Positions 30,437 through 50,736 of a DNA stretch of 64,000 bases are shown piece after piece. This DNA comes from Smutsia gigantea. Its lineage: Eukaryota. Position 1 is the stretch's first letter, and the number at the start of each line of letters is the position of its first letter. Where the stretch lies: assembly GCA_032199065.1 (NCBI GenBank), contig JAVSCE010011590.1, forward strand, positions 236,551 to 300,550. Direction: 5' to 3'. A model generated the notes under the pieces. That model saw only the letters and a program-made list of their open reading frames with translations, searched no databases and was not told the origin of the DNA. The translations under genes were made by a program, and so were the position numbers.

Positions 30437-30989
30437 TCACCCAGCAGGTTTGTTCTGGTGCCGTGTAGGAACCAAAGCCGTGCCCTGCACAGGGGGCAGT
30501 GCCAGGATGCAGGCGGACAGCTCAGCCTGAGGCCTTGGCAGAGTTCCCAGGCAGAGCCATCGGCCCAGGCCGGGACAGTAAGCATGGATCAGGTGGGAGA
30601 GGGCATAAGTCCGGTGGCTATAGCCCCCCAGCACCAGGAGCTCCCCCTGCAGCGCAGCACCTGCAGCACCCACATGGGGGGAGGGCAGGGGTGCCAGGTG
30701 AGTCCAGCTATCAGTCCTTGGTTCATAGGCCTCAAAGCTCAGCAGGTCCCCAGTCTCACCTAACCCGCCTGCCACATATAACCGCCCACCTAGAGCAGCC
30801 GTGACATGGCCAGCCCGAGGTACCCCCATAGGGCTCAGAAGTGTCCCCGGCTTCTCAAGCTTGGGGTCGTAATGCAGCAGTGAGGCCAGGTATTGACCAG
30901 TCCCGCTGCAGCCACCGCTCACATACAGTCGGCCCTCCAAAACAGCAGCGGCGTGGGCAAAGCGAGGTGCGGGAAGCGCAGGTGCTGGC
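30437..30989 (-). CDS. KLHL-family gene, last coding exon (Kelch repeats, stop at 30437-30439).
   Basis: Minus-strand acceptor ctcttctcccttag then gccagcacc. It translates to RPAPALPAPRFAHAAAVLEGRLYVSGGCSGTGQYLASLLHYDPKLEKPG...GRLYVAGG...GELLVLGGYS...TALVPTRHQNKPAG*, with GG-doublet and Y/W Kelch blade signatures. Confidence 0.7.
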
Positions 30990-31065: not shown

Positions 31066-31234
31066 CCCTGCTCACCTCCAGACATTGAGCTCGGGGTCAT
31101 AGGCCTCCACAGAGTTGAGGGCAACACCCCTGTCTCGTCCACCCAGGGCATAAAGTTGTCCGTCCAGAGCCACCAGGGGAAAGAAGCTCCGAGCCTGGCA
31201 CAAAGGCGCCATCTCCTCCCAGTCCTCTTGACTG
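31066..31234 (-). CDS. KLHL-family gene, internal Kelch exon.
   Basis: Acceptor ctctgtccag then gtgggacc; donor ctggag then gtgagcagg. It translates to (R)WDPSQEDWEEMAPLCQARSFFPLVALDGQLYALGGRDRGVALNSVEAYDPELNVWR. Confidence 0.7.
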
Positions 31235-31355
31235 GGGTCCCACCTGGACAGAGTGGGACAAGAGATGGCAAGAGTGACCCTAGGAGTCTGTGGTTGGCTG
31301 GGCCTGCAATTTCCCTCAGCTCCACTCTGGGGCCTGCCACCCTTGGGGCTCCTAC

Positions 31356-32280
31356 CTGAGAGTGGAAGCCAGAATGTTGGAGTCGCTGTAGAAATCCTGT
31401 CCACCACACACGTAGAGTTCACTTCCTGCTAGGCTAGCAGCCCCATGGCGGAAGCGCCCTGGGGCAGGCAGGGCTGGCAGCTGCCCCCACTCCACAGTCC
31501 GAACCAGTCCCGTGCCACAGCAGAAGGCCCGGGCCCACCACACTGCTCGGGATGGCTGCCTTATGGCCATGTCCGATCGGAGCCCATCCCCGCCAATCAC
31601 TACCAGTGCCTGGTCAGGCTCCCTCCGCCTCTCTTGACCTGGAACCTCAGCCTCCACCATCAGCTGATGCAGCAAGTCAGGCGACAGGGGCGGAGGCAGC
31701 CCGGCTGCCCGTACCCTCCGCAGCTCTCTAGTGGACATACGGCCAAAGCGGACACATCGCAGCAGGGCCTTGGCCTCCGACTCCTGGGTCTCGGGGTTGG
31801 CAGCGAGCCAACACCGTGCAGCCACAAAGGCTTCGAACTCCTCCTGCACATGTAGCTCATCGCTGTCTAGGAGTTCAGCCAGACGGGCAGCCGGTAAAGA
31901 AGGGAAAGTGGAGCACAGAGCCACAGCAGGCAGGTGCATGAGGAGGTAGTGACGGGCTTTGCTCCACAGCCTCTCCAACCCCGGGACTTCAGCCATGGGG
32001 AGCAGGGCCAGGCAACGGGCGGGGCTGAGGCCCTGTGCCAAGGCTCTCTGGCACAGGGCCAGGCAAGAAGCACTCTGGTACTGCAGAGCAGCCTGGGCCG
32101 CTCGCAGCAGTCCTGGCCACCGCGCCCGAATGACCCCAGAGTAGGCAAAAGAGACAAGGAGTCGCAGGTCCTGGGCAGAGACGGTGTGTAGAGACACCTC
32201 TGTCCCCTGGGATTCCCTCATCCCGCTCAGGAGCATGGCCCCAAAGAACTCGCTGCCACAGGCCAGTGCTGCCCGGTGCA
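31356..32280 (-). CDS. KLHL-family gene, large exon encoding the C-terminal half of a BTB domain, the BACK domain and the first Kelch blade.
   Basis: A textbook acceptor (ccctctctgcttctcctccttgcag) sits at 32281-32305; the donor is ctctcag then gtaggagcc. It translates to (V)HRAALACGSEFFGAMLLSG...LVSFAYSGVIRARWPGLLRAAQAALQYQSASCLALC...ARCLALLPMAEVPGLERLWSKARHYLLMHL...ALVVIGGDG...GSELYVCGGQDFYSDSNILASTLR. An in-frame TAG lies 9 codons upstream of the acceptor, so the exon must be spliced. Confidence 0.75.
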
Positions 32281-34379
32281 CTGCAAGGAGGAGAAGCAGA
32301 GAGGGGTCCAGAATGCTGCAAACTGCTAGGCACTATCCCGACTTCACAACCCCGGCTCTGGGCCAACCACCCAAGGCCACAGGCCCAACCATGGTGTGCA
32401 TCAGAATGCCATGGGGTGCTTGATAAAATACAGGTTTCAGAGACCCACCCCCACAGAGTCTGAGTCAGTCACCTGGATGGATACCCTAGGGATTCGTATT
32501 TTAACATTTTCAAGCACCCTGCATGATTCTCATGTTAGTGGCCTGAAGATACTGTGCTAGACATTGGTTTAGTCTTTTTGATCCAAGTCAGTTGGAAAGT
32601 CTTGATGGATCAAGTTGAGAAGATGCTACAGACAGCATTTGAGAATAGACAAAATAAACTGCAGAGACCAGTTGCAACTTATACAGGTCTCTCTACATTG
32701 TGCATGGAATAAAATTCCTTTACAATCTTAAGAGCCATTGACATCAGCCATTCTGTTAGACAGATTATACTCAGAAAGTGATACCACATTCAGGGATGGC
32801 TGTAACCTAACTTCTTCTAACTGACATCTCCTCTTGCCCAAGACCCAGTGCTTAAGATTTTCTATGTATTCTAACTCTTTCCCACACACACTCCACAGCT
32901 GCCCCAGCCCCGCCTCCAGCCCACCCCATCTCAGTATAGGTCATGGAATCATGACTTTTTTTTTGAATCATGACATTTTAAACTGGAAAGCTTTAAAATC
33001 ATCTTGTTCAAATGTTCTTTTTTAAGATAAGGAAACTGAGTCCTAGAGGAAGGAAGGGATCTATTTTCTATTCTATTGGTGGCTCTCTGGACAGATCTTC
33101 ACCACCCACTGTCACTGATGTCAGGCTGTTAGTACCCTATTTATCTACATGACCGACATGACACTGAAACTGTTCTATTAACAAGTGCAGTTAAATAACT
33201 GGACCTCATATGCTTTCTAATTGAGATACTTCACATCAAAAATGGAATATTCTGACCAAAATATTTAATTTAAATCTAATCAAATCTTTAGATCTAATTT
33301 CAAGTTCAAAGGAAATTGAGAGGCTAAAGGAACAAATTAAACAAAAGGGAAAACACACGCAAATCTGGATAACAGATCTCTCAATAGGATAACCTGTCTT
33401 GTTTCTTCAATAGGTCAAATCTGAAAAAAAAAAAAAGGAGAGAGGACAGTACAAGAGTAAAGGAAGCTTGGGTAGTGAACATCGGAGCACAGCATGGTCC
33501 TTGATTGGTTCCTGGGTTGAACAAACCAGCCCTAAAAGAGATTTTTTTGGACAAGTGGGGCAATTTCTGTGTGGATTAGGCAATATCCTTTAATAATAAT
33601 TCCTTTTGTTAATTTTGTTGGACATGATAAAGATATTGGGGTCATATGAGAAACGGTCCTCTTTTAAAGAGAAACACACCCAAGTATTTATGAGTGAAAT
33701 GTCACAGATTTACTTTAAACTTCAGTAAAAGCAAAATAAAATACGGAGATGAAACAGATATAGCAAAATGCTCATTGTTAAGTCAGGGTGATGTTTGTGT
33801 CCTCCTCAAATTCCTATGTTGAAGCCCTAGTCGCTAATAGGTTGGTATTTGTAGGTGAGGCCTTTGGGAGGCTATCAGGTATGAGAGTGAGACCCTGTGA
33901 ATGGCATTTGTGGCCCTATAAGGGGAGACATGAGAGATGATTCTCCCTCTGCCATGTGCGGATACAGTGAAAAGGTGGCCTCCTACAAACCAGGGAGAAG
34001 ACCCTAACTAGAACCTGACCATGCTGGTACCCTGATCTGGGCTGCCGGCCTCCAGAACTGTAAGAAATACCTGTAGGTACAAGACCCAGGCTATTTTTTT
34101 TTAAGTAGCCCAAGCTGACTAAGACAGGATGATTTTTCTTCTGGGAATCCCAGAAACACTTTTGAGTCCCAGTCATTCCTCTCATAGGCTGCAGCTATGT
34201 GACGTCAGACATGTCTTGAAGTCTGACTTCTTTATCAAAGTCTAAGAGCTGAACTAGTTAATCTCTAAGCCAATCCCTTTTAGTTTTAAACTGTTATGTG
34301 TCTGTATTCTGACTCCATTTGCCAGGTCCTGTGTGTCTGGTCCTGTGTGTCTTTGCTTTGGCTGTGTAGAAGGCACTGC

Positions 34380-34590
34380 ATGGCCTAGTGAAAGTAGACT
34401 GGGCTAGTGGGCGTGAGCTTGTATCCAAGTTCTCACCAATTAACATCTCTGAGTTTAATGTTCTTTGTCTGCAACTAGCGATAATAGTACTTACCTCACT
34501 AGTTTTCAGGGAGAATGAAAAGAGATAGCATGTGTGATAAAAACTCGTGGTTCCCAGTACCTCACTAAGTGAACGATCTGAATACTCAAG
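34380..34590. repeat. MIR relic in the KLHL intron.
   Basis: ...tgtctgcaactagcgataatagtacttacctcactagttttcagggagaatgaaaagagatagcatgtgtgataaaaactcgtggttcccagtacctcactaagtgaac matches the MIR 3' half. Confidence 0.5.
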
Positions 34591-35298
34591 GCATGCAATA
34601 CTCCTTAGCTTTCCTGCTGATGAGCAGAGTTGACTTCAAAGTTCCATGGCCTGGGAGCCTTAAGATTCTGGCAAAACAGTACCAGACCCTGCTCATTAGC
34701 TGAAGGATCCACATCTGCCATGGTGTCAAGCACACTTAGGTGAAAGGACACGCTGGTTTTTTTTCTGGCTTTTCCTGTGTCCTAAATAGAAGATGCCAAG
34801 AAGGGCCTTTGGTTAATCCCTGTTTGAGTCAATCACTTTCTGCTTGTTCTACTGGCATGAACTGTACCTTTAGCTCTATCTAGCCAGCGGACTGGAAATT
34901 CCTTGTTGCTGGGCACAGGAAAAGCCACAGTGTGGAAGGTCAGCTTAAATCTGTCTGAGCTCCCAGAAAAACAACTCAACTGCGCATGCCCCGCTCTCAG
35001 TGAGTCAGGAGAGGCACCCAAGGCCACCCCAGGGAAATTCTGACTATAGCGGGGATCAAAACCACTATGGTAGGGATCAATCCACCTGCTGCTGGCACAC
35101 CCCATTCCGGCGGCTTATGCACCTGCAGCGATGTAATGCCACACAGGTGCTCACCCAGCAGCCGGCAGCCACCTGCCTCCAGTTCCAGGTCGCACCCGGT
35201 GCCCTCTTGGTACAGGAGCTCGATGCTGCGCAGGTTCTCCTTCAACTCTTCTGCCTGGCTGGGCTGCTTTTCATCTTCCCGCCTGCCTCCAGTCCCCT

Positions 35299-35689
35299 CA
35301 CGTCTCCACTGGGCCGCGGCCTTCACTCTGGGTGCTCCTAGGGCCTCGGCCGCTTCCAGTACACCCCCCCAAGGGGCGGGGCCCAGCACCCCCTCATAAG
35401 CAAAGGTCAGTACGGCTTCCCAGGCCCCCGGGGCCACGTCGAGACTAAAGGGGGGTCGTGGACCTCCACCGCCCAGCAGCCTGCCTCGGAAGAGGCTGCT
35501 AACCGCAGCCAAGATCACCCGATGCACCCCGTATACTCGCCCCCCGACTGACACCTCTTCGTCCACCAACAGCTTTTGTTCCCGCAGCCGCTGCGCCTCC
35601 GCAAAGAACTGGCTCGGATGCTCCTCGCTGCGCAGCGCTTCGGACTCCGCCCCACCTTCTGCGTCCTCCTCTTCCTCCTCTAGGGACAT
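35299..35689 (-). CDS. KLHL-family gene, candidate first coding exon (ATG at 35687-35689, acidic N-terminus, then a complete BTB-like segment). The 3' boundary is unresolved; a candidate GTGAGG donor lies near 35298 and the track ORF runs on to 34997.
   Basis: MSLEEEEEDAEGGAESEALRSEEHPSQFFAEAQRLREQKLLVDEEVSVGGRVYGVHRVILAAVSSLFRGRLLGGGGPRPPFSLDVAPGAWEAVLTFAYEGVLGPAPWGGVLEAAEALGAP..., embedded in a CpG island. Confidence 0.5.
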
Positions 35690-36560
35690 GGCTGGAGAGG
35701 GAAGGTTCCTGGGGCCACGGGCCTGGGGCCGGTCTCTTCCAGAGGAAAGGGGGGCAGACGGGGGTCCTCGTCGGGGGACGGAGGCCAGAAGAGGGCTCTC
35801 GGGGCGGGCAAAGCGAGGCCAGGGCCGACCTTTGTGACCGGAAGAGAGGCGCCCTCGGGGACCGAGGCACGAAGTGCGGACTCCGAGATGCTCCCGGCCT
35901 AGGTTCGCTGCATAACTGCAGGTGAGCAGAGGAGAGGGGGTCCGAGCTGGGCCCAGAGGGCAGCCCGGCCTGTCAGTCTCTCTCCCTACTTCAACCCTCC
36001 TCTCCCCACCTCCAGTCCCACCTCCAGGCTGGAGCCGCTAGGCTACACAGCGCAACTGTGAAGCTGCCGAGGTGCAGCGAAGGATGTAAGAGGGGTGTGT
36101 GAAGGTCCAGTGCCCCTTCCTGACCCCAACCTGACAGTCCCCCTCCTGAGACAGCGTTCTGCTGGCCCTCTCACCTGAACCTGCTCGGCTTTGCACCGGC
36201 TGGCGGAGGACACTAGCCCCTCACCCGGCCCGCGGCCCTACCCGGCTAATTATAGCCGGCGCTGGCAGGCTAGGGGCTGGACTCCAGGAGCCCGACTCAG
36301 ACACCCAATCCGCTGGGCCGCGTCCCGAAATGACCTTCTCCCCGCGTCCACCTGTAGGTCGCCTCTTAGCGCTGAGCGAGGCAAATGTGGAAGCCAAGGG
36401 GGATGCGGGAATAGGGTGGACTGAGCCTGGTCAGAAAAACTGCGTTGCCCGGACCCGGCTGGAGGGGCGACGGACCCCGCAGGGTCTGGACCACGCAGAC
36501 CCGCCGAACATGACGCGAAAAGAGTAAAGCGTGCATTTTGGGTCAGTCCTTGGTTTTGAC
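35300..36560. promoter_or_regulatory. CpG island covering the KLHL 5' exon and the intergenic interval to the divergently oriented SLC12A3-like gene. It is a candidate bidirectional promoter.
   Basis: High GC and CpG density across 35300-36560 (gcggccgaggccctaggagcacccagagtgaaggccgcggcc..., ccggccgcggccc..., gacgcgaaaagag). The first recognisable SLC12A3-like coding sequence begins about 1.5 kb from the KLHL ATG on the opposite strand. Confidence 0.6.
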
Positions 36561-38465
36561 TGTTGTTTTTCTGTGAACAATACTGAGGTGAAATGCAAAC
36601 GTAACCAGGCTGGGTCCACCGAGGGCGGAGGTTGGGGGAAGTAAAGGGAGGGCGGTCAGGGCTAGGATCCTAAGTGACCGGGATTTCTTCCCAGTCCCGA
36701 GGTAGGTTCGGTGGTGAAACAGCGAAACCCAGCCCTGCGTCTTCAGAAGGAAGGAGTCTGAGGGAATCTGATCTCACCTTGGTCGCTGGGATGAGGACCA
36801 ATCTCCGCAGCTGCGGGGACCGGAGTCCAGGGCTGGATGGGCCGGGGGCGCGATACCGTTTTTTTAAATTGAATAATAGTTCACGTACAATGCTATATCA
36901 GTTTCAGGTGTGTAACACAGTGACCCAAACTCGCTGTTTGAGGCAGGACACCAATAGCCACCTCCTCTGCCAGGGCCAACACTCCTTCCTCATCTTGAGA
37001 CACCCCTAATTCTGGGCAATCACTTTTCACTGCAGTTCATTTACCTTCATGCGGAAGGAGTTGAGGGAAGCGGCATCGCTGCCCCTTCCCTGAGGAAGAG
37101 GTAGGGACAGGTCAAGGGCTGCTGGGGGCGGATACCCTGTCCTTTAATAAGACTGGTCCAGGCTGGATAGATAGGACAAGCTGGCTTAACCAGGGATAGA
37201 AACACGATTGTCTCTCTGCACTCAGGTGAGAAGGGTGGTGCTCATGTGGGGGGGGTGGGGGTGGGGCGGGAAGGTGGGCTGCTCCGCACAGCACCCTCCT
37301 CCAGCTTTGGGGAACTGTCCCCAGCTCCCCACTTGCCGGTTGGGTACCCGCGCCCACCCAGAGGCAGAGCAGTGTAGCTGCGTGCTGCACTCCCCAAAAT
37401 GGTTCAGTGGAGAGAGGCAGCCTGTGATTGCCTGGACAGAAGGGGCGATGATGACCAGCCTCTACACCCTCTCCCCCATCTCAGACATCTCGGACCACTC
37501 CTATGGCTTCCTCGCAGCAAGACAACGCGGCCAGCACCATGAGTCCCCATCTTGAAGAGAAGGAGCCGCCATACCCCAGGTCGGCATCTGCCCTCCCACC
37601 ACCTGAAAGGACAAGAACACTGGGCCACACTCTGAGTCCCATGCCGGCTCTACAGTCCTGGGACAGCTTCATTGCAGTGAGACTCCGGAGGCTCTGTGCA
37701 GCAATGCCACGGTGAGACCCACGACCCCCCAGTGAACACAGAAGGCTGGATAAAGCCTGCTGTTCTGGGCCATCAGCCACCCTCCATTAAGGCCCTGGGA
37801 CTGACCTCCCCCCATAGCACCTCCAAGTATGTTAGCTGCGGTCCTGGTCCCTGACTTAAGAGCATCCGTGCTGTCTTAGTCACACGAGAGCACAGCATCC
37901 ATCTCCACAGAGGAGCCCCACACCCAGCCGCACCCCCAGAAAGAGGATCTGGATAATTCGTGGGCCAGGCCTGACAAGGCCCAGGGCTGCCTCACCGGAG
38001 TCATGGTACTGGGTGATGCTCAGGGTTCCCCGAGTTAGGGGATCTAGGTGGGGGAGAGAACGTCACTCCGGAGGGGCTCTTGAAGGGTGGGGCTGAGGGT
38101 GACCCCGGTTCCTCACTCACCATCCTACTCTCCTAGACATGCTGTCTGCTCAAGAGCTGGGGCACCACCCTCTTCCTGCGGCCGCCTTCGATCACTGCTC
38201 AGGCGGGCATAGGTGTGGGCTCAGGGCTCTGCTGGGTAGCAGGGGTTCAGGGACCCTGGGAATGAGTTAAAGGGTCCCTATTCCCATCTCCACCCCAGGG
38301 CTCACATGGCTCATTACTCTGCTCTCAGCTTCAGTCCATACTATCCCCAGCCTGTCTATCTCAGCCATTTCCACCAACTGCCAAGGCAAGGCTGGTGAGT
38401 CTGCTGCAGTTCCATCATCTCTCAGGGTCCCTGGTTCCGTCAGATGCAGCCAAAACCACATCTTC

Positions 38466-38516
38466 CTCTCCTCTCCTCTCCTCTCCTCTCCTCTCCTCTC
38501 CTCTCCTCTCCTCTCA
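38466..38516 (+). repeat. (TCTCC)n pyrimidine microsatellite that forms the polypyrimidine tract of the 38518 acceptor.
   Basis: tcctctcctctcctctcctctcctctcctctcctctcctctcag. Confidence 0.85.
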
Positions 38517-38867
38517 GGTGGCAGGTACTTCTTTATCTTGCACAGCCTGGTTCCCGAACTTGGCGAATCCATCGGGATCATCTTCGCTTTTGCCAACACA
38601 GTAGCTGTGGCTATGCACACAGCAGGCTCTGCAGAGACCCTTTCGGATCTGCTCTGGGTAAGGCCCATCCCTCCTTTGGTTGAGTGCAGCCTGCAGTCAT
38701 TTTAAGAATCAGATGGAGGCATCAAATCAGAGAATGAAGTCTCTGTGACCCTCTACCTCTGCCTTCCAGGAACATGGGGTGCAGCTGCCAAACATGGATC
38801 CCAAAAATGAGTTTCGGGTGATGGGTGTGGTGACTATGACCATCCTTTTGGGCGCGGCACTGGCCGG

Positions 38868-38932
38868 TATGGAGTGTGCGTGTGTGTGCGTGTGCATGTG
38901 TGTGTGCACGCGTGTGTGTGTGTGTGTGCAGC
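38868..38932 (+). repeat. (GT/GC)n dinucleotide microsatellite directly at the 3' end of the 38770 exon.
   Basis: atggagtgtgcgtgtgtgtgcgtgtgcatgtgtgtgtgcacgcgtgtgtgtgtgtgtgtgcag. Confidence 0.85.
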
Positions 38933-41900
38933 TGGCACAGCAGATTCCCAGGGGCCGAGACCTGCACCTGGACAGTTTTGCTGGAGGAGACTCCACACAC
39001 CAATTCCTCAGGGGACAAGTAAGGAGGACTCATTCCGAGGCTCTGCTGGGGCAAGCACTAACAGGGCTCCCAGATAAGAAGTGCCCTGTCACCTGCTCCC
39101 AGATATTTACAGTCTTGAGATGTGCCCCTCTGGCATGGGAAGGGACACTGCAGTTTGAGGCAAGAAAGAAAAGGACACCATTTAGCCAGACTCTGGGGAA
39201 GAGGCTGGCGGGAAAGGGAACCAGAGGATGGGAGAGGAGAGGGAAGATGAGACAAGGAGAGGGAGGAGGTGAAGTAGTTACTCCTTCCTTTCCACTCATA
39301 TTTCTCCTGTTTGTTTGTTTTTATCTCCCATAGTATATAGGCCCAAATGATCTCCTTCTTCCTGATCCTCCTCTCTTTTATCAATTACCTTCTGGGGACA
39401 CTCCTCCCCACACACCCCAGCTGACAAGCCACTGGCTTCTTTGGGTACCAAGGTAAGTCAGTGGGAAGCTGGCTGAGAAGTGCATTAAGGGGCATGAATG
39501 CCTCAGAATGTCATTTTTCCTTGGAGCAGGGGACCTCATTAGCCCAACCCTCCTCAGAAAAGCCCCCTTCACTCTGATTCTATATGCCATCTGCGATCAT
39601 TAGGAGACCTCTAAGTCCCTGGGCTGGCTAGTTTACAAACTTCCCTTCTTCCCAGCTCAGCTAAGTTACTGACACTCAAGTGTGTAGAGGGGTAATGGTG
39701 TTGGCTGAATGAAGGGAAGCCAGGAGGTTCTACTCAAAACACCATCTTTTCTCTCTGCTCCTTTGTAGGAAGTATTTTCTTGGAAAATACAGTGCCACAG
39801 CGGCATGGTCCAGAAGGCAGCTTCTCGGGCATGTTTTCCATCGTCTTCTCCTCAGCCACTGGGATACTTCCCAGGACCACTATATCTGGCGACCTTAAGG
39901 TGAGAAGGATGTCCAGGCACAGAGCACACACTCTCTCCCCTCCTCTACCTTCACTAATAGTTCAAGTTTTGTTCCCAGGACCTTGCTACTGCTATCACCA
40001 AAGGAACCCTCCTCGCCATCATGTGGACCACACTTTCCTACCTGGGCATCTCTGTCACCAACGGTAAGGCCCTCCACTCCTGCCTACTGTGCACCGTGAC
40101 CTGGAACCTTTGATTTCTGCTTCTCTGAGGAGCTAGGGTATAGGTGATGAAATGAGCAAGTGGCATTCATCAATCACATTCAAAGTAGTTTACCCCCCCA
40201 CCACCAACATTTCTCCCCATCCCTCATTTCATTAATGAATTGTAGGGCATTCTTTGAGCATCCAATTTCATTACCCCCCAACCCACCATGCACACATACT
40301 TCCAATCTCCCCTTTAACATGAATGGTACCCAGATAGATCTACTGTGTTGGGATGGGGGTCTCTCCCCATGAAGGGGTGTGCATCTTTTATCTCATTTCC
40401 AGGTTCCTGTATGATTCGAGATGCTTCAGGAAATATCACTGACATGGGTGTGCAGAATGGGAGCTGCATGGGGCCAGAGCGTCAGTATGGCTGGGATTTC
40501 AGCAGTTGTCGAGAACAAAGGACCTGCCACTATGGGCTCTCTAATTACTACCAGGTGAGTGAACCAGAGAAGAGTAGGGAAATAAATCTTACCTAGCCCA
40601 TTGTCCAGCACAGAGAAGATGCTCAAAGGGAAGTAATGACTTAAGTGAATTCATGTGCGTGGGGTAAAACTCTCAAAAATGGAATAAAATATAATACACC
40701 ATGCAACTTCTGGGAAAGCAAGGTAAAAAGATGGGTGGAATGCCTTGCTTCTGGAATGCACTGATTTCTGCCTCTGCCTGCCATTCTCCACAGGCAATGA
40801 GCATAATACCTGCTTTCAGCCCCCTGACGTCTGCTGGAATCCTCAGTGCCACTCTGTCCTCTGCCCTTTCCTGCTTTGTTTCAGCCCCTAAAATCTTCCA
40901 GGTTAGTTGGTATCTTACCAAGAGGCTTTGGAGAGAAAGGAGAGAATGTACATAGACAGTGCCATCCCAAGGTATAATTTTTGGGGGAGGAGGAGCAAAA
41001 GAAGACCCAGTCTCAGCAACCAGGGCCTACATGGTGACTGAGGGAGATGGAGATGACTGTGGTTGGCTGGTGTTTAAGAGACAATCTAAGTTCATATAGC
41101 AACATTCAAAGTCTGCCCATAAATCAAGGCAAAGTCTGGGGAGGGATCACTCTTCCATCTGCCTCCTCTGTTTTTCCCACCTCACATTCTCAGGGATGTC
41201 ACTACACTCTATTCCATCTATCCATTCTTCCTTTTAAGACCCCTAAGCTCCCTCGGCTCTTCTCTCTGTACTCCTCACTCCCTCTCACTGCTCTGGAGGA
41301 GCAGGGGGCTGTCATTCTCCCTCCTCCTGGGACCCTCCCCAATGACAGCCATGCCTTTGTACAGCGGCTGTGCCAGGATAAGCCATACCTGGTCATCGGC
41401 TTTCTGGGGAAAGGCTATGGCCAGAAACATAAGCGTGTGCGAGGCTGTCTGTCCGCCTTCCTCATGGCTGCAGCTTCCTCCTTGCTGGCAAGCGCTCCTC
41501 CTCCACCCAGGCTCATTGACCGCCTTTCCCCTCATGCCCCCCACTCCCTACCTAAAGCATCTTTTCTCTCTAGTCCTGAAAGTGGGTGGAAACACCTGCT
41601 AACTTGGTGGCAGTGGTGGTGTTTGTGATGGTGGGGTGGGGAGTAGGGAACAGGGAGTGCAGGGACGGGGAAGCCCGAAGATGTCCTTAATCCCCTAGAC
41701 CTGGATCCCATGACCCAGTTTGGAGACTAACCCCTTGACCTTTCATCTCTCTCAAAGCTGATCTGAACACCATTGCCCCCAACATCTCCAACTTTTTACT
41801 CTGTTCCTATGCCCTCTTTCCACGCTCCCTTCGTCAGTTGCCTGGTTAGTATGGGCAGGTGTTGGGGTCAGGCCCAGGGCTGGGAGGACCTGGGAGAATC

Positions 41901-50538: not shown

Positions 50539-50736
<198 letters not shown>

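What the first reader, a model, noticed from the sequence alone, without database searches (positions are those of the whole stretch)
31356..35689. Two tandem BTB-like coding segments in the KLHL-family gene
The candidate first exon encodes a complete BTB-like block (...GVHRVILAAVSSLFRGRLLGGGG...LTFAYEGVLGPAPWGGVLEAAEALGAP). The next exon, 3 kb downstream, starts with the C-terminal half of a second, clearly paralogous BTB ((V)HRAALACGSEFFGAMLLSG...LVSFAYSGVIRARWPGLLRAAQAALQYQ) followed by BACK and Kelch. The LTFAYEGV/LVSFAYSGV and GGVLEAAEAL/PGLLRAAQAAL correspondences are too good for chance. Either the BTB exon was tandemly duplicated, the true exon 1 donor lies inside the first BTB (after ...VYGVHR) and the remainder is a duplicated pseudo-exon, or two paralogous genes abut. 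I could not find a phase-compatible donor after GVHR.
Basis: seen in the sequence. Interest (0 to 1): 0.55.

Follow-up and report, generated by a model that had tools for sequence, protein, structure and literature searches.

The report
KLHL33 gene encodes two BTB domains
The two BTB-like segments are real and belong to one ordinary, already-annotated gene (KLHL33) whose protein carries two BTB domains in a row, the second split by an intron, so this is not a duplicated exon, a dead exon or two neighbouring genes.

Summary
The minus strand carries the KLHL33 orthologue (95% identical to Manis pentadactyla KLHL33). The first coding exon (ATG 35689 to 35155) encodes all of BTB1, a 13-residue linker and the first ~34 residues of BTB2. 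It splices to 32280, so BTB2 is complete across the junction, followed by BACK and a Kelch propeller (726 aa, four GT-AG coding exons). Three independent assembled transcripts from other mammals carry exactly this junction. Fish, gecko, bird and marsupial orthologues have both BTBs. BTB1 is under purifying selection like the rest of the protein (dN/dS 0.14-0.20). There is no nucleotide similarity between the copies and nothing BTB-like in the intron. The shared motifs are generic BTB motifs: BTB1 scores no closer to BTB2 than to ZBTB-type BTBs. Only BTB2 keeps the invariant CUL3-docking φ-x-E motif. AlphaFold2 packs BTB1 onto BTB2 like a canonical BTB dimer within one chain; this is a prediction only. 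The architecture is already annotated, so interest is modest.

The parts
36140..36462 (-). Non-coding 5' UTR exon of KLHL33 (approximate limits; the donor was not pinned down)
   Evidence: Transcript contig L003 positions 52-352 align to window 36462-36161, then jump to 35913.
35155..35915 (-). First coding exon. The acceptor AG is at 35917-35916. It contains the disrupted remnant of the N-terminal extension, the ATG, BTB1, the linker and the start of BTB2.
   Evidence: L003 junction ...GGGAAG|CAATCC aligns to window ...cacctgcag|TTATGC. L001, L003 and L004 are colinear down to 35152-35159.
35698..35892 (-). Remnant of the ~69-aa Pro-rich N-terminal extension annotated in orthologues. Here it is out of frame and lacks its start codon.
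   Evidence: tblastn places P0001 aa 2-66 in frame -2, whereas the main ORF is in frame -1. Compared with M. pentadactyla DNA, the ATG is GGG (35895-35893) and there is a 1-nt deletion in CCAGGGAACC.
35687..35689 (-). First in-frame ATG of the intact ORF. It is the likely start codon in this genome.
   Evidence: ORF list and spliced model. The equivalent residue is Met70 in M. pentadactyla and Leu in other mammals.
35297..35641 (-). BTB1 (aa 17-131): a complete BTB fold with no φ-x-E motif and a Gly/Pro-rich alpha3-beta4 loop
   Evidence: Pfam BTB 34 bits. AF2 pLDDT about 90-95 with the canonical order of secondary-structure elements. dN/dS 0.14-0.20. Mean column identity 0.82 across 38 orthologues.
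35258..35296 (-). Inter-BTB linker (aa 132-144): predicted disordered and unconstrained
   Evidence: pLDDT below 50 at aa 133-139. Conservation 0.615 over model residues 126-150. dN/dS 0.7-4.6 on few sites.
35155..35257 (-). N-terminal part of BTB2 (aa 145-178 plus the first base of codon 179): helix alpha1 and strands beta2-beta3
   Evidence: The Pfam BTB match at aa 159-261 spans the junction. AF2 elements H145-162, E168-172 and E175-179.
35153..35154 (-). GT donor of the intron that splits BTB2 (phase 1; ...CTG CTG G|gtgagc)
   Evidence: Sequence. Junction identical in three transcripts.
32281..35154 (-). 2,874-bp intron inside BTB2. No coding or BTB-like segment was detected in it.
   Evidence: tblastn of the orthologue gives no hit in the intron. 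tblastn of BTB1 and BTB2 against the intron gives only E>1 noise.
32033..32280 (-). C-terminal part of BTB2 (aa 179-261; acceptor ...ttgcag|TG CAC)
   Evidence: Pfam BTB_KLHL33 (PF21536) matches aa 194-256.
32213..32221 (-). ATG AGG GAA = M199-R200-E201, the φ-x-E CUL3-docking motif of BTB2
   Evidence: M199 and E201 are invariant in 38 orthologues from fish to mammals. The spacing A193-M194...M199-x-E201 equals KLHL3 A77-M78...M83-S84-E85, which contact CUL3 (PMC3616122).
31712..32014 (-). BACK domain (aa 268-368), including the 3-box directly after BTB2
   Evidence: Pfam BACK 65.8 bits.
31356..32280 (-). Second coding exon (rest of BTB2, BACK, first Kelch blades)
31076..31243 (-). Third coding exon (Kelch)
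30437..30989 (-). Fourth coding exon (Kelch, stop codon included)

Best explanation
Shown: the region is the 5' part of one gene, the orthologue of KLHL33, on the minus strand. Its protein has the architecture BTB1 - short linker - BTB2 - BACK - Kelch propeller. The first coding exon encodes BTB1, the linker and the first ~34 residues of BTB2. A 2.9-kb phase-1 intron interrupts BTB2 at the end of strand beta3, and the next exon supplies the rest of BTB2, BACK and the first Kelch blades. The double BTB is ancestral in bony vertebrates, and both copies are maintained by selection.

Inferred mechanism: KLHL33 is a CUL3 substrate adaptor. BTB2, together with the adjoining 3-box/BACK, is the CUL3-docking unit, because it keeps the invariant φ-x-E motif. 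The Kelch propeller binds substrate. BTB1 lacks φ-x-E and has no 3-box after it, so it is not a CUL3 site. Instead it occupies the dimerisation face of BTB2 and forms an intramolecular pseudo-dimer. That would make KLHL33 a single-chain adaptor with one CUL3 site and one propeller, rather than the usual 2:2 homodimer.

My confidence in the gene-structure part is about 0.97. My confidence in the pseudo-dimer part is about 0.5.
For: Gene structure. A four-exon GT-AG model gives an uninterrupted 726-aa ORF. tblastn of the pangolin orthologue maps colinearly to exactly these exons. Three transcript contigs from independent runs (L001, L003, L004) join window 35155 to 32280 with the identical junction G|TGCACCG. 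Pfam finds two BTB matches, BTB_KLHL33, BACK and five Kelch stretches, with the second BTB match spanning the junction.

Identity. The model is 95% identical to M. pentadactyla KLHL33 and 82-89% identical to about 40 other mammalian KLHL33 proteins of ~796-800 aa. The genomic DNA is colinear with the M. pentadactyla locus at about 89.6% identity.

Age and constraint. Fish, gecko, bird and opossum proteins each give two BTB stretches. dN/dS is 0.14-0.20 for BTB1 and 0.09-0.15 for BTB2. No nucleotide similarity exists between the two coding segments.

Against: The transcripts are from other species, and no RNA data exist for this genome. The pseudo-dimer rests on AlphaFold2 only, with a shallow 38-sequence alignment dominated by mammals. 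AF2 may reproduce the BTB dimer geometry it learned from homodimers. I could not inspect coordinates, PAE or the interface. The beta1-beta5 pairing is inferred from DSSP strings, not seen directly. The linker-length test was not decisive: the spacing between anchor residues is 26-27 in 31/38 sequences but falls to 12-17 in two predicted proteins. CUL3 binding by KLHL33 has not been shown in anything I could find. The human reference protein is a 533-aa form that lacks BTB1, so a short isoform may also exist.
Confidence: 0.9

Rival explanations
1. The gene structure is the same, but BTB1 acts between molecules. BTB1 and BTB2 each pair with their counterparts on other KLHL33 chains, or BTB1 pairs with other BTB proteins. 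This would give higher-order oligomers or heteromeric CRL3 assemblies, analogous to the two self-association domains of SPOP.
For: BTB domains are typically homodimerisation modules, and CRL3 ligases are reported to need dimeric assembly for activity (PMC11074293). BTB1 keeps a conserved alpha1 helix and beta1 strand. Its closest solved relatives are dimerising or filament-forming ZBTB BTBs. AF2 was run on a single chain, so it could not show intermolecular pairing.
Against: AF2 gives a confident compact single-chain arrangement (pTM 0.86) that superimposes on a complete BTB dimer. The complementary loss of beta5 in BTB1 and beta1 in BTB2 fits one intramolecular swapped sheet. The linker is short (13 residues).
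Confidence: 0.3
2. The functional product is the short 533-aa human-type protein, starting at MLLSG inside BTB2. The upstream exon with BTB1 would then be 5' UTR, an upstream ORF or an alternative first exon of little consequence.
For: A Homo sapiens entry of 533 aa and several 'isoform X2' predictions start at this Met. The Pfam family BTB_KLHL33 (63 positions) begins exactly at that residue.
Against: The short form would begin in the middle of the BTB fold, after helix alpha3, and lack helix alpha1, strands beta2-beta3 and helices alpha2-alpha3. BTB1 and the first part of BTB2 are under purifying selection equal to the rest of the protein and are conserved down to fish. Three transcripts carry one continuous ORF through both exons. 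Most orthologue annotations are ~796-800 aa.
Confidence: 0.05
3. A recent tandem duplication of a BTB exon.
For: Two homologous BTB units lie in tandem in one gene.
Against: There is no DNA similarity beyond chance 7-9-mers, and third-codon identity is 36% against 28% expected. The units do not coincide with exons. The architecture is shared by fish, reptiles, birds and mammals. BTB1 is not closer to BTB2 than to ZBTB-type BTBs.
Confidence: 0.02
4. The true donor lies inside BTB1 (after ...VYGVHR) and the rest of the exon is a duplicated pseudo-exon, or the two blocks belong to two abutting paralogous genes.
For: A mouse cDNA-derived protein (B7ZMY3, P0162) lacks 31 residues inside BTB1 relative to the genomic ORF, so minor internal splicing of this exon may occur in mouse. 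One automated annotation fuses exon 1 to the upstream gene OSGEP (P0111).
Against: Three transcripts contain the full exon and splice at 35155. dN/dS for the supposed pseudo-exon part is 0.14-0.20. There is a single continuous ORF. The P0111 fusion simply reads through the same donor into the intron (...LELEADGYRLQ then GKSMGYC...), which is typical of a mis-prediction.
Confidence: 0.01

Closest known systems
KLHL33 (kelch-like family member 33) orthologues, e.g. Manis pentadactyla isoform X1 (796 aa), Meles meles (799 aa), Sus scrofa F1S8H2
   Same: Same gene: 82-95% protein identity across mammals, the same BTB-BTB-BACK-Kelch domain order, the same exon junctions, and colinear genomic DNA.
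   Different: In this window the ~69-aa Pro-rich N-terminal extension is disrupted (start ATG replaced by GGG, plus a 1-nt deletion). The ORF therefore starts at the internal Met and gives 726 aa.
Canonical BTB-BACK-Kelch CUL3 adaptors (KLHL3, KLHL22, KEAP1, KBTBD2)
   Same: BTB2-BACK-Kelch matches full-length KLHL22, KBTBD2 and KBTBD4 structures (Foldseek E 1e-27 to 1e-31). The φ-x-E motif and the residues preceding it are conserved as in KLHL3. The propeller matches KLHL and KEAP1 Kelch domains at TM ~0.9.
   Different: There is an extra complete BTB domain in front. It is predicted to occupy the face that the canonical proteins use for homodimerisation. One phylogenetic study could not place KLHL33 in any KLHL clade (PMC10146909).
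RhoBTB1-3 and BTB-ankyrin (ABTB-type) tandem-BTB proteins
   Same: Two adjacent BTB domains in one chain. For RhoBTB, an intramolecular BTB dimer was proposed, with only one BTB binding CUL3 (Stogios et al. 2005, PMC1257465).
   Different: No Rho GTPase or ankyrin domains, and no large insertion in the first BTB. In RhoBTB2 the first BTB binds CUL3, whereas here the second BTB carries the CUL3 motif. The substrate-binding module is a Kelch propeller.
Engineered tethered BTB heterodimers Miz1-BCL6 and Miz1-Nac1 (PDB 4u2m, 4u2n)
   Different: These are artificial fusions of transcription-factor BTBs with only 16-22% identity to the model. Here the arrangement would be natural and part of a ubiquitin-ligase adaptor.

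Membership tests
KLHL33 orthologue group | Highest similarity to annotated KLHL33 proteins over the full length | tested here: met
   Hits P0001-P0110 are named KLHL33 wherever a source gives a name (a few carry generic names, many have none). The best is 95% identity at 98% coverage.
KLHL33 orthologue group | Match to the dedicated Pfam family BTB_KLHL33 (PF21536) | tested here: met
   89.1 bits against a cut-off of 27, at aa 194-256.
KLHL33 orthologue group | Conserved genomic position (colinear locus, with OSGEP upstream on the same strand) | tested here: met
   About 13 kb is colinear with the M. pentadactyla KLHL33 locus at ~89.6% identity. An OSGEP exon lies at 50643-50539 on the minus strand. 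Only one OSGEP exon was detected, so the synteny evidence is thin but consistent.
BTB-BACK-Kelch (KLHL) CUL3 substrate adaptors | BTB domain followed by a BACK domain and a 5-6-blade Kelch propeller | tested here: met
   Pfam BTB, BACK (65.8 bits) and Kelch_1 (154.7 bits, 5 stretches). The AF2 model matches full-length KLHL22 and KBTBD2 and Kelch domains at TM ~0.9.
BTB-BACK-Kelch (KLHL) CUL3 substrate adaptors | φ-x-E motif in the alpha3-beta4 region of the BTB next to the 3-box | tested here: met
   BTB2 has M199-R200-E201, invariant in 38 sequences, with spacing identical to KLHL3. BTB1 lacks the motif.
BTB-BACK-Kelch (KLHL) CUL3 substrate adaptors | Physical binding to CUL3 and substrate ubiquitylation | not testable with these tools
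   No experimental report was found for KLHL33.
BTB-BACK-Kelch (KLHL) CUL3 substrate adaptors | Homodimerisation through the BTB domain | not testable with these tools
   AF2 on a single chain predicts that the dimer face of BTB2 is occupied by BTB1. No multimer prediction or experiment was available.
Tandem-BTB proteins with an intramolecular BTB dimer (RhoBTB-like arrangement) | Two adjacent BTB folds in one polypeptide | tested here: met
   Pfam finds two stretches. AF2 folds both confidently.
Tandem-BTB proteins with an intramolecular BTB dimer (RhoBTB-like arrangement) | The two BTBs pack as a canonical dimer within the chain | tested here: inconclusive
   Predicted by AF2 and supported by two structure-comparison programs, but this is a prediction only. 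The linker-length test was not decisive.
Tandem-BTB proteins with an intramolecular BTB dimer (RhoBTB-like arrangement) | Rho GTPase domain (RhoBTB family proper) | tested here: not met
   No such domain appears in the Pfam scan. The resemblance is an analogy of architecture, not family membership.
Recent tandem exon duplication | Detectable nucleotide similarity between the copies | tested here: not met
   blastn with word size 7 finds only chance matches (E>=0.6). Codon-aligned identity is 48%, and third positions 36% against 28% expected.
Recent tandem exon duplication | Repeat unit boundaries coincide with exon boundaries | tested here: not met
   BTB1 and the first part of BTB2 share one exon, and the intron lies inside BTB2.
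Pseudo-exon or decaying duplicate | Relaxed constraint (dN/dS near 1), frame disruptions, absence from mRNA | tested here: not met
   dN/dS is 0.14-0.20, the ORF is intact, and the segment is present in three transcripts.

The most novel reading that the evidence does not exclude
KLHL33 is a natural single-chain BTB pseudo-dimer, and the only KLHL-type CUL3 adaptor I saw with such an arrangement. In it a degenerate, CUL3-blind BTB1 permanently caps the dimer interface of BTB2. The result would be an obligate 1:1 adaptor:CUL3 ligase with a single propeller, unable to homodimerise or heterodimerise through the canonical BTB interface. The literature and the human reference protein (a 533-aa form that starts inside BTB2) have overlooked this because the first coding exon is missing from that model.
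Probability: 0.4. Interest if true: 0.5.

Novelty: already known. Interest (0 to 1): 0.28.

Why it matters
For genome annotation, this is a clean example of a homologous domain pair plus an intron inside a domain being mistaken for a duplicated exon or for two genes. Automated pipelines stumble at the same donor: an OSGEP-KLHL33 fusion in Fukomys, a 533-aa human model that starts inside BTB2, and a Pfam family apparently built on that truncated form. For biology, KLHL33 is essentially uncharacterised. If the predicted intramolecular BTB1:BTB2 pairing is real, it would be a natural exception to the rule that BTB-Kelch adaptors work as homodimers recruiting two CUL3 molecules. That would bear on how dimerisation, the CUL3 N-terminal assembly motif and dimerisation quality control apply to CRL3 ligases. 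That part is a hypothesis from structure prediction, not a result.

Tried and rejected
(1) My first exon-3 boundary was off by one base and broke the frame. It was corrected.

(2) My first alignment of the start region used wrong L002 coordinates and was meaningless for that row. It was redone with blastn offsets.

(4) A search of the intron for a hidden exon supplying the N-terminal half of BTB2 found none. None is needed.

(5) I tested whether BTB1 and BTB2 are each other's closest relatives. They are not demonstrably so, so I do not claim an intragenic duplication.

(6) A profile search with the double-BTB region, meant to find invertebrate or other double-BTB relatives, returned mainly exon-1 ORF fragments of vertebrate KLHL33 and one weak echinoderm KLHL hit. 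It gave no information on origin.

(7) The many 608-aa Logan/ENA hits are read-through ORFs on genomic contigs whose sequence is nearly identical to the human entry, not transcripts. I did not use them as splice evidence.

(8) P0145, which I guessed to be human, is mouse.

(9) Literature: Dhanoa et al. 2013 does not mention KLHL33 in its main text, and I found no paper describing a double BTB in KLHL33.

(10) The AlphaFold-database fold search for natural tandem-BTB analogues was unavailable.

(11) Linker-length conservation as a test of the pseudo-dimer was inconclusive.


Full report
**What is in the sequence.** The region lies on the minus strand of a mammalian gene. The similarity is not chance. 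BLASTP gives 37% identity over 78 residues with E=6e-8. The Smith-Waterman score is 82, against 27.2 ± 4.8 for 2000 shuffles (z=11.4, none reaching it). The hhalign probability between orthologue profiles is 97.4%. Pfam BTB matches both segments above its gathering threshold.

The upstream ORF does not end with BTB1. After BTB1 and a charged linker it continues with ...AEELKENLRSIELLYQEGTGCDLELEAGGCRLL. This has the pattern of the first helix and the beta2-beta3 hairpin of a BTB domain. The acceptor ...ctccttgcag|TG CAC at 32282-32281 is phase-compatible: G+TG gives Val179, followed by HRAALACGSEFF. Joining 35689-35155, 32280-31356, 31243-31076 and 30989-30437, all GT-AG, gives an uninterrupted 726-aa ORF. 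On that protein Pfam finds BTB at aa 33-125 and a second BTB at aa 159-261. The second match spans the junction at residue 178/179. Pfam also finds BTB_KLHL33 at aa 194-256, BACK at aa 268-368 and five Kelch stretches.

**Independent support for the gene model.** The protein is the KLHL33 orthologue. It is 95% identical to Manis pentadactyla KLHL33 isoform X1 and 82-89% identical to about forty other placental-mammal KLHL33 proteins, most of ~796-800 aa. tblastn of the pangolin protein maps colinearly to exactly my four exons and to nothing in the intron. About 13 kb of the M. pentadactyla locus aligns colinearly at ~89.6% nucleotide identity. The window therefore comes from a related but different species.

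Three contigs assembled from public sequencing runs are too short to be genomic and each carries one continuous KLHL33 ORF: L001 from SRR33486306, L003 from SRR1584453 and L004 from SRR24829791. Each maps to the window as the same four blocks, and each reads ...G|TGCACCG... at the join, base for base as predicted. L003 additionally shows a non-coding 5' exon at about 36462-36140. It also shows that the first coding exon begins at the acceptor ...cacctgcag|TTATGC, so the exon starts at 35915. One OSGEP exon lies upstream on the same strand at 50643-50539.

In the codon alignment, third positions agree at 36% against 28% expected from composition. The repeat units do not coincide with exons. Fish (Nerophis), gecko, bird and opossum KLHL33 all give two Pfam BTB stretches. 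Any duplication therefore predates bony vertebrates.
- *Internal donor plus pseudo-exon.* All three transcripts contain the whole exon. BTB1 has dN/dS of 0.14-0.20 against the three transcripts. That is the same range as BTB2 (0.09-0.15), BACK (0.08-0.12) and Kelch (0.13-0.19), while the 13-residue linker is unconstrained (0.7-4.6, few sites). Column conservation across 38 orthologues is 0.82 for BTB1 and 0.87 for BTB2.
- *Two abutting genes.* This is excluded by the single ORF, the transcripts and the orthologue annotations.

With phmmer at the same database size, BTB1 scores 23.9 bits against BTB2. It scores 32.1 bits against a ZBTB17/NACC1 chain and 29.6 bits against ZBTB7A. BTB2's best solved relatives are KBTBD2, KLHL26 and KEAP1. 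The two domains are homologous as BTBs, but I cannot show that they are each other's closest relatives. I therefore do not claim an intragenic duplication.

**How it probably works.** BTB-BACK-Kelch proteins are CUL3 substrate adaptors. In KLHL3, CUL3 is contacted by helix alpha3 (A77, M78), by the φ-x-E motif M83-S84-E85 in the alpha3-beta4 region, and by the 3-box at the start of BACK. The E85A mutation abolishes binding (PMC3616122). KLHL33 BTB2 has A193-M194...M199-R200-E201 with identical spacing. M199 and E201 are invariant in all 38 sequences from fish to mammals, and BTB2 is followed directly by BACK. BTB1 has a poorly conserved Gly/Pro-rich loop at that position and no 3-box after it. 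I infer that BTB2-BACK is the CUL3 site and that BTB1 is not.

AlphaFold2 with the 38-sequence alignment folds both BTBs confidently, with the same order of secondary-structure elements (full length: pLDDT 85.1, pTM 0.74). The intron falls at the end of strand beta3 of BTB2. The isolated double-BTB fragment (residues 1-263) gives pLDDT 87.8 and pTM 0.86, unusually high for two domains joined by a disordered linker.

The predicted secondary structure is also complementary. BTB1 has the N-terminal strand beta1 but no beta5. BTB2 has beta5 but no beta1, its place being taken by the linker. The two strands have equal length in both models. This fits a single swapped beta1-beta5 sheet between the two domains of one chain.

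My working model is that BTB1 caps the dimer face of BTB2. KLHL33 would then be a single-chain pseudo-dimer with one CUL3 site and one propeller. This contrasts with the 2:2 dimers described for KLHL22, KEAP1 and others (PMC11074293).

This part is prediction only. The alignment is shallow, AF2 may simply reproduce a learned dimer geometry, and I had no access to coordinates or PAE. The linker-length test was not decisive. The main rival is intermolecular pairing of BTB1, leading to oligomers.

**Comparison with what is known.** The gene and its BTB-BTB-BACK-Kelch architecture are already in public annotation for dozens of species, so the finding is not new. I found no paper that describes the double BTB of KLHL33. 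[quoted passage not shown]

A Homo sapiens entry (533 aa) begins at MLLSGMRES, inside BTB2. The 63-position Pfam family BTB_KLHL33 begins at exactly that residue, which suggests the family was built on the truncated model.

The idea that adjacent BTB domains form an intramolecular dimer was proposed for RhoBTB proteins in 2005 (PMC1257465). KLHL33 has no Rho domain, so this is a resemblance of architecture, not family membership.

**Verdict.** The finding describes a real feature with an ordinary explanation: one annotated gene with two BTB domains, the second split by an intron. Interest is low to modest. The only element that might interest a specialist is the predicted single-chain BTB pseudo-dimer, which would need experimental testing.

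Noticed in passing
window 35698-35895 (minus strand): The ~69-aa proline-rich N-terminal extension annotated in most KLHL33 orthologues is disrupted here. The orthologous start ATG is GGG (two substitutions relative to M. pentadactyla), with a TAG two codons upstream. A 1-nt deletion (CCAGGGAACC to CCA-GGAACC) shifts the frame. Translation probably starts at ATG 35689, a Met shared with M. pentadactyla but Leu in other mammals. This could be a real lineage-specific loss or an assembly error.
   Followed up: partly
window ~36140-36462 (minus strand): A non-coding 5' exon of KLHL33 was detected only through transcript contig L003. It is spliced to the acceptor at 35917-35916. The exact donor in the window was not determined.
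   Followed up: partly
P0059 (Homo sapiens, 533 aa) and Pfam PF21536: The human KLHL33 entry starts at MLLSG, inside BTB2. The 63-residue Pfam family 'BTB_KLHL33' starts at exactly that residue, so the family appears to model the C-terminal remnant of a truncated gene model rather than a distinct domain type.
   Followed up: partly
P0111 (Fukomys damarensis 'OSGEP', 594 aa): An automated annotation fuses OSGEP to KLHL33 exon 1 and reads through the exon-1 donor into the intron (...LELEADGYRLQ then GKSMGYC...).
   Followed up: no
P0162 (mouse B7ZMY3, 218 aa) vs P0145 (mouse genomic exon-1 ORF, 249 aa): A mouse cDNA-derived product retains intron 1 (...YRLRGESL*) and lacks 31 residues inside BTB1 (VILAA|LTFAYEG). 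This may be a minor internal splice ('exitron') or a cloning artefact. It would be the only hint of a donor inside BTB1.
   Followed up: no
window 50539-50643 (minus strand): One exon with 86% identity to OSGEP lies upstream of KLHL33 on the same strand, consistent with the expected neighbourhood. Other OSGEP exons were not detected at E<=1e-3.
   Followed up: no
L002 1-2024 (M. pentadactyla locus; corresponds to roughly window 38000-39900): The pangolin assembly annotation places an 856-aa gene product on the opposite strand just upstream of KLHL33. I did not examine what it is, or whether it is present in the window.
   Followed up: no
P0077-P0099 (608-aa Logan/ENA proteins): Dozens of near-identical 608-aa 'proteins' from metagenome and SRA assemblies are nearly identical to the human KLHL33 entry. 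They are KLHL33 genomic DNA translated straight through the introns from the MLLSG Met, presumably human DNA in those samples, and are not transcripts.
   Followed up: partly
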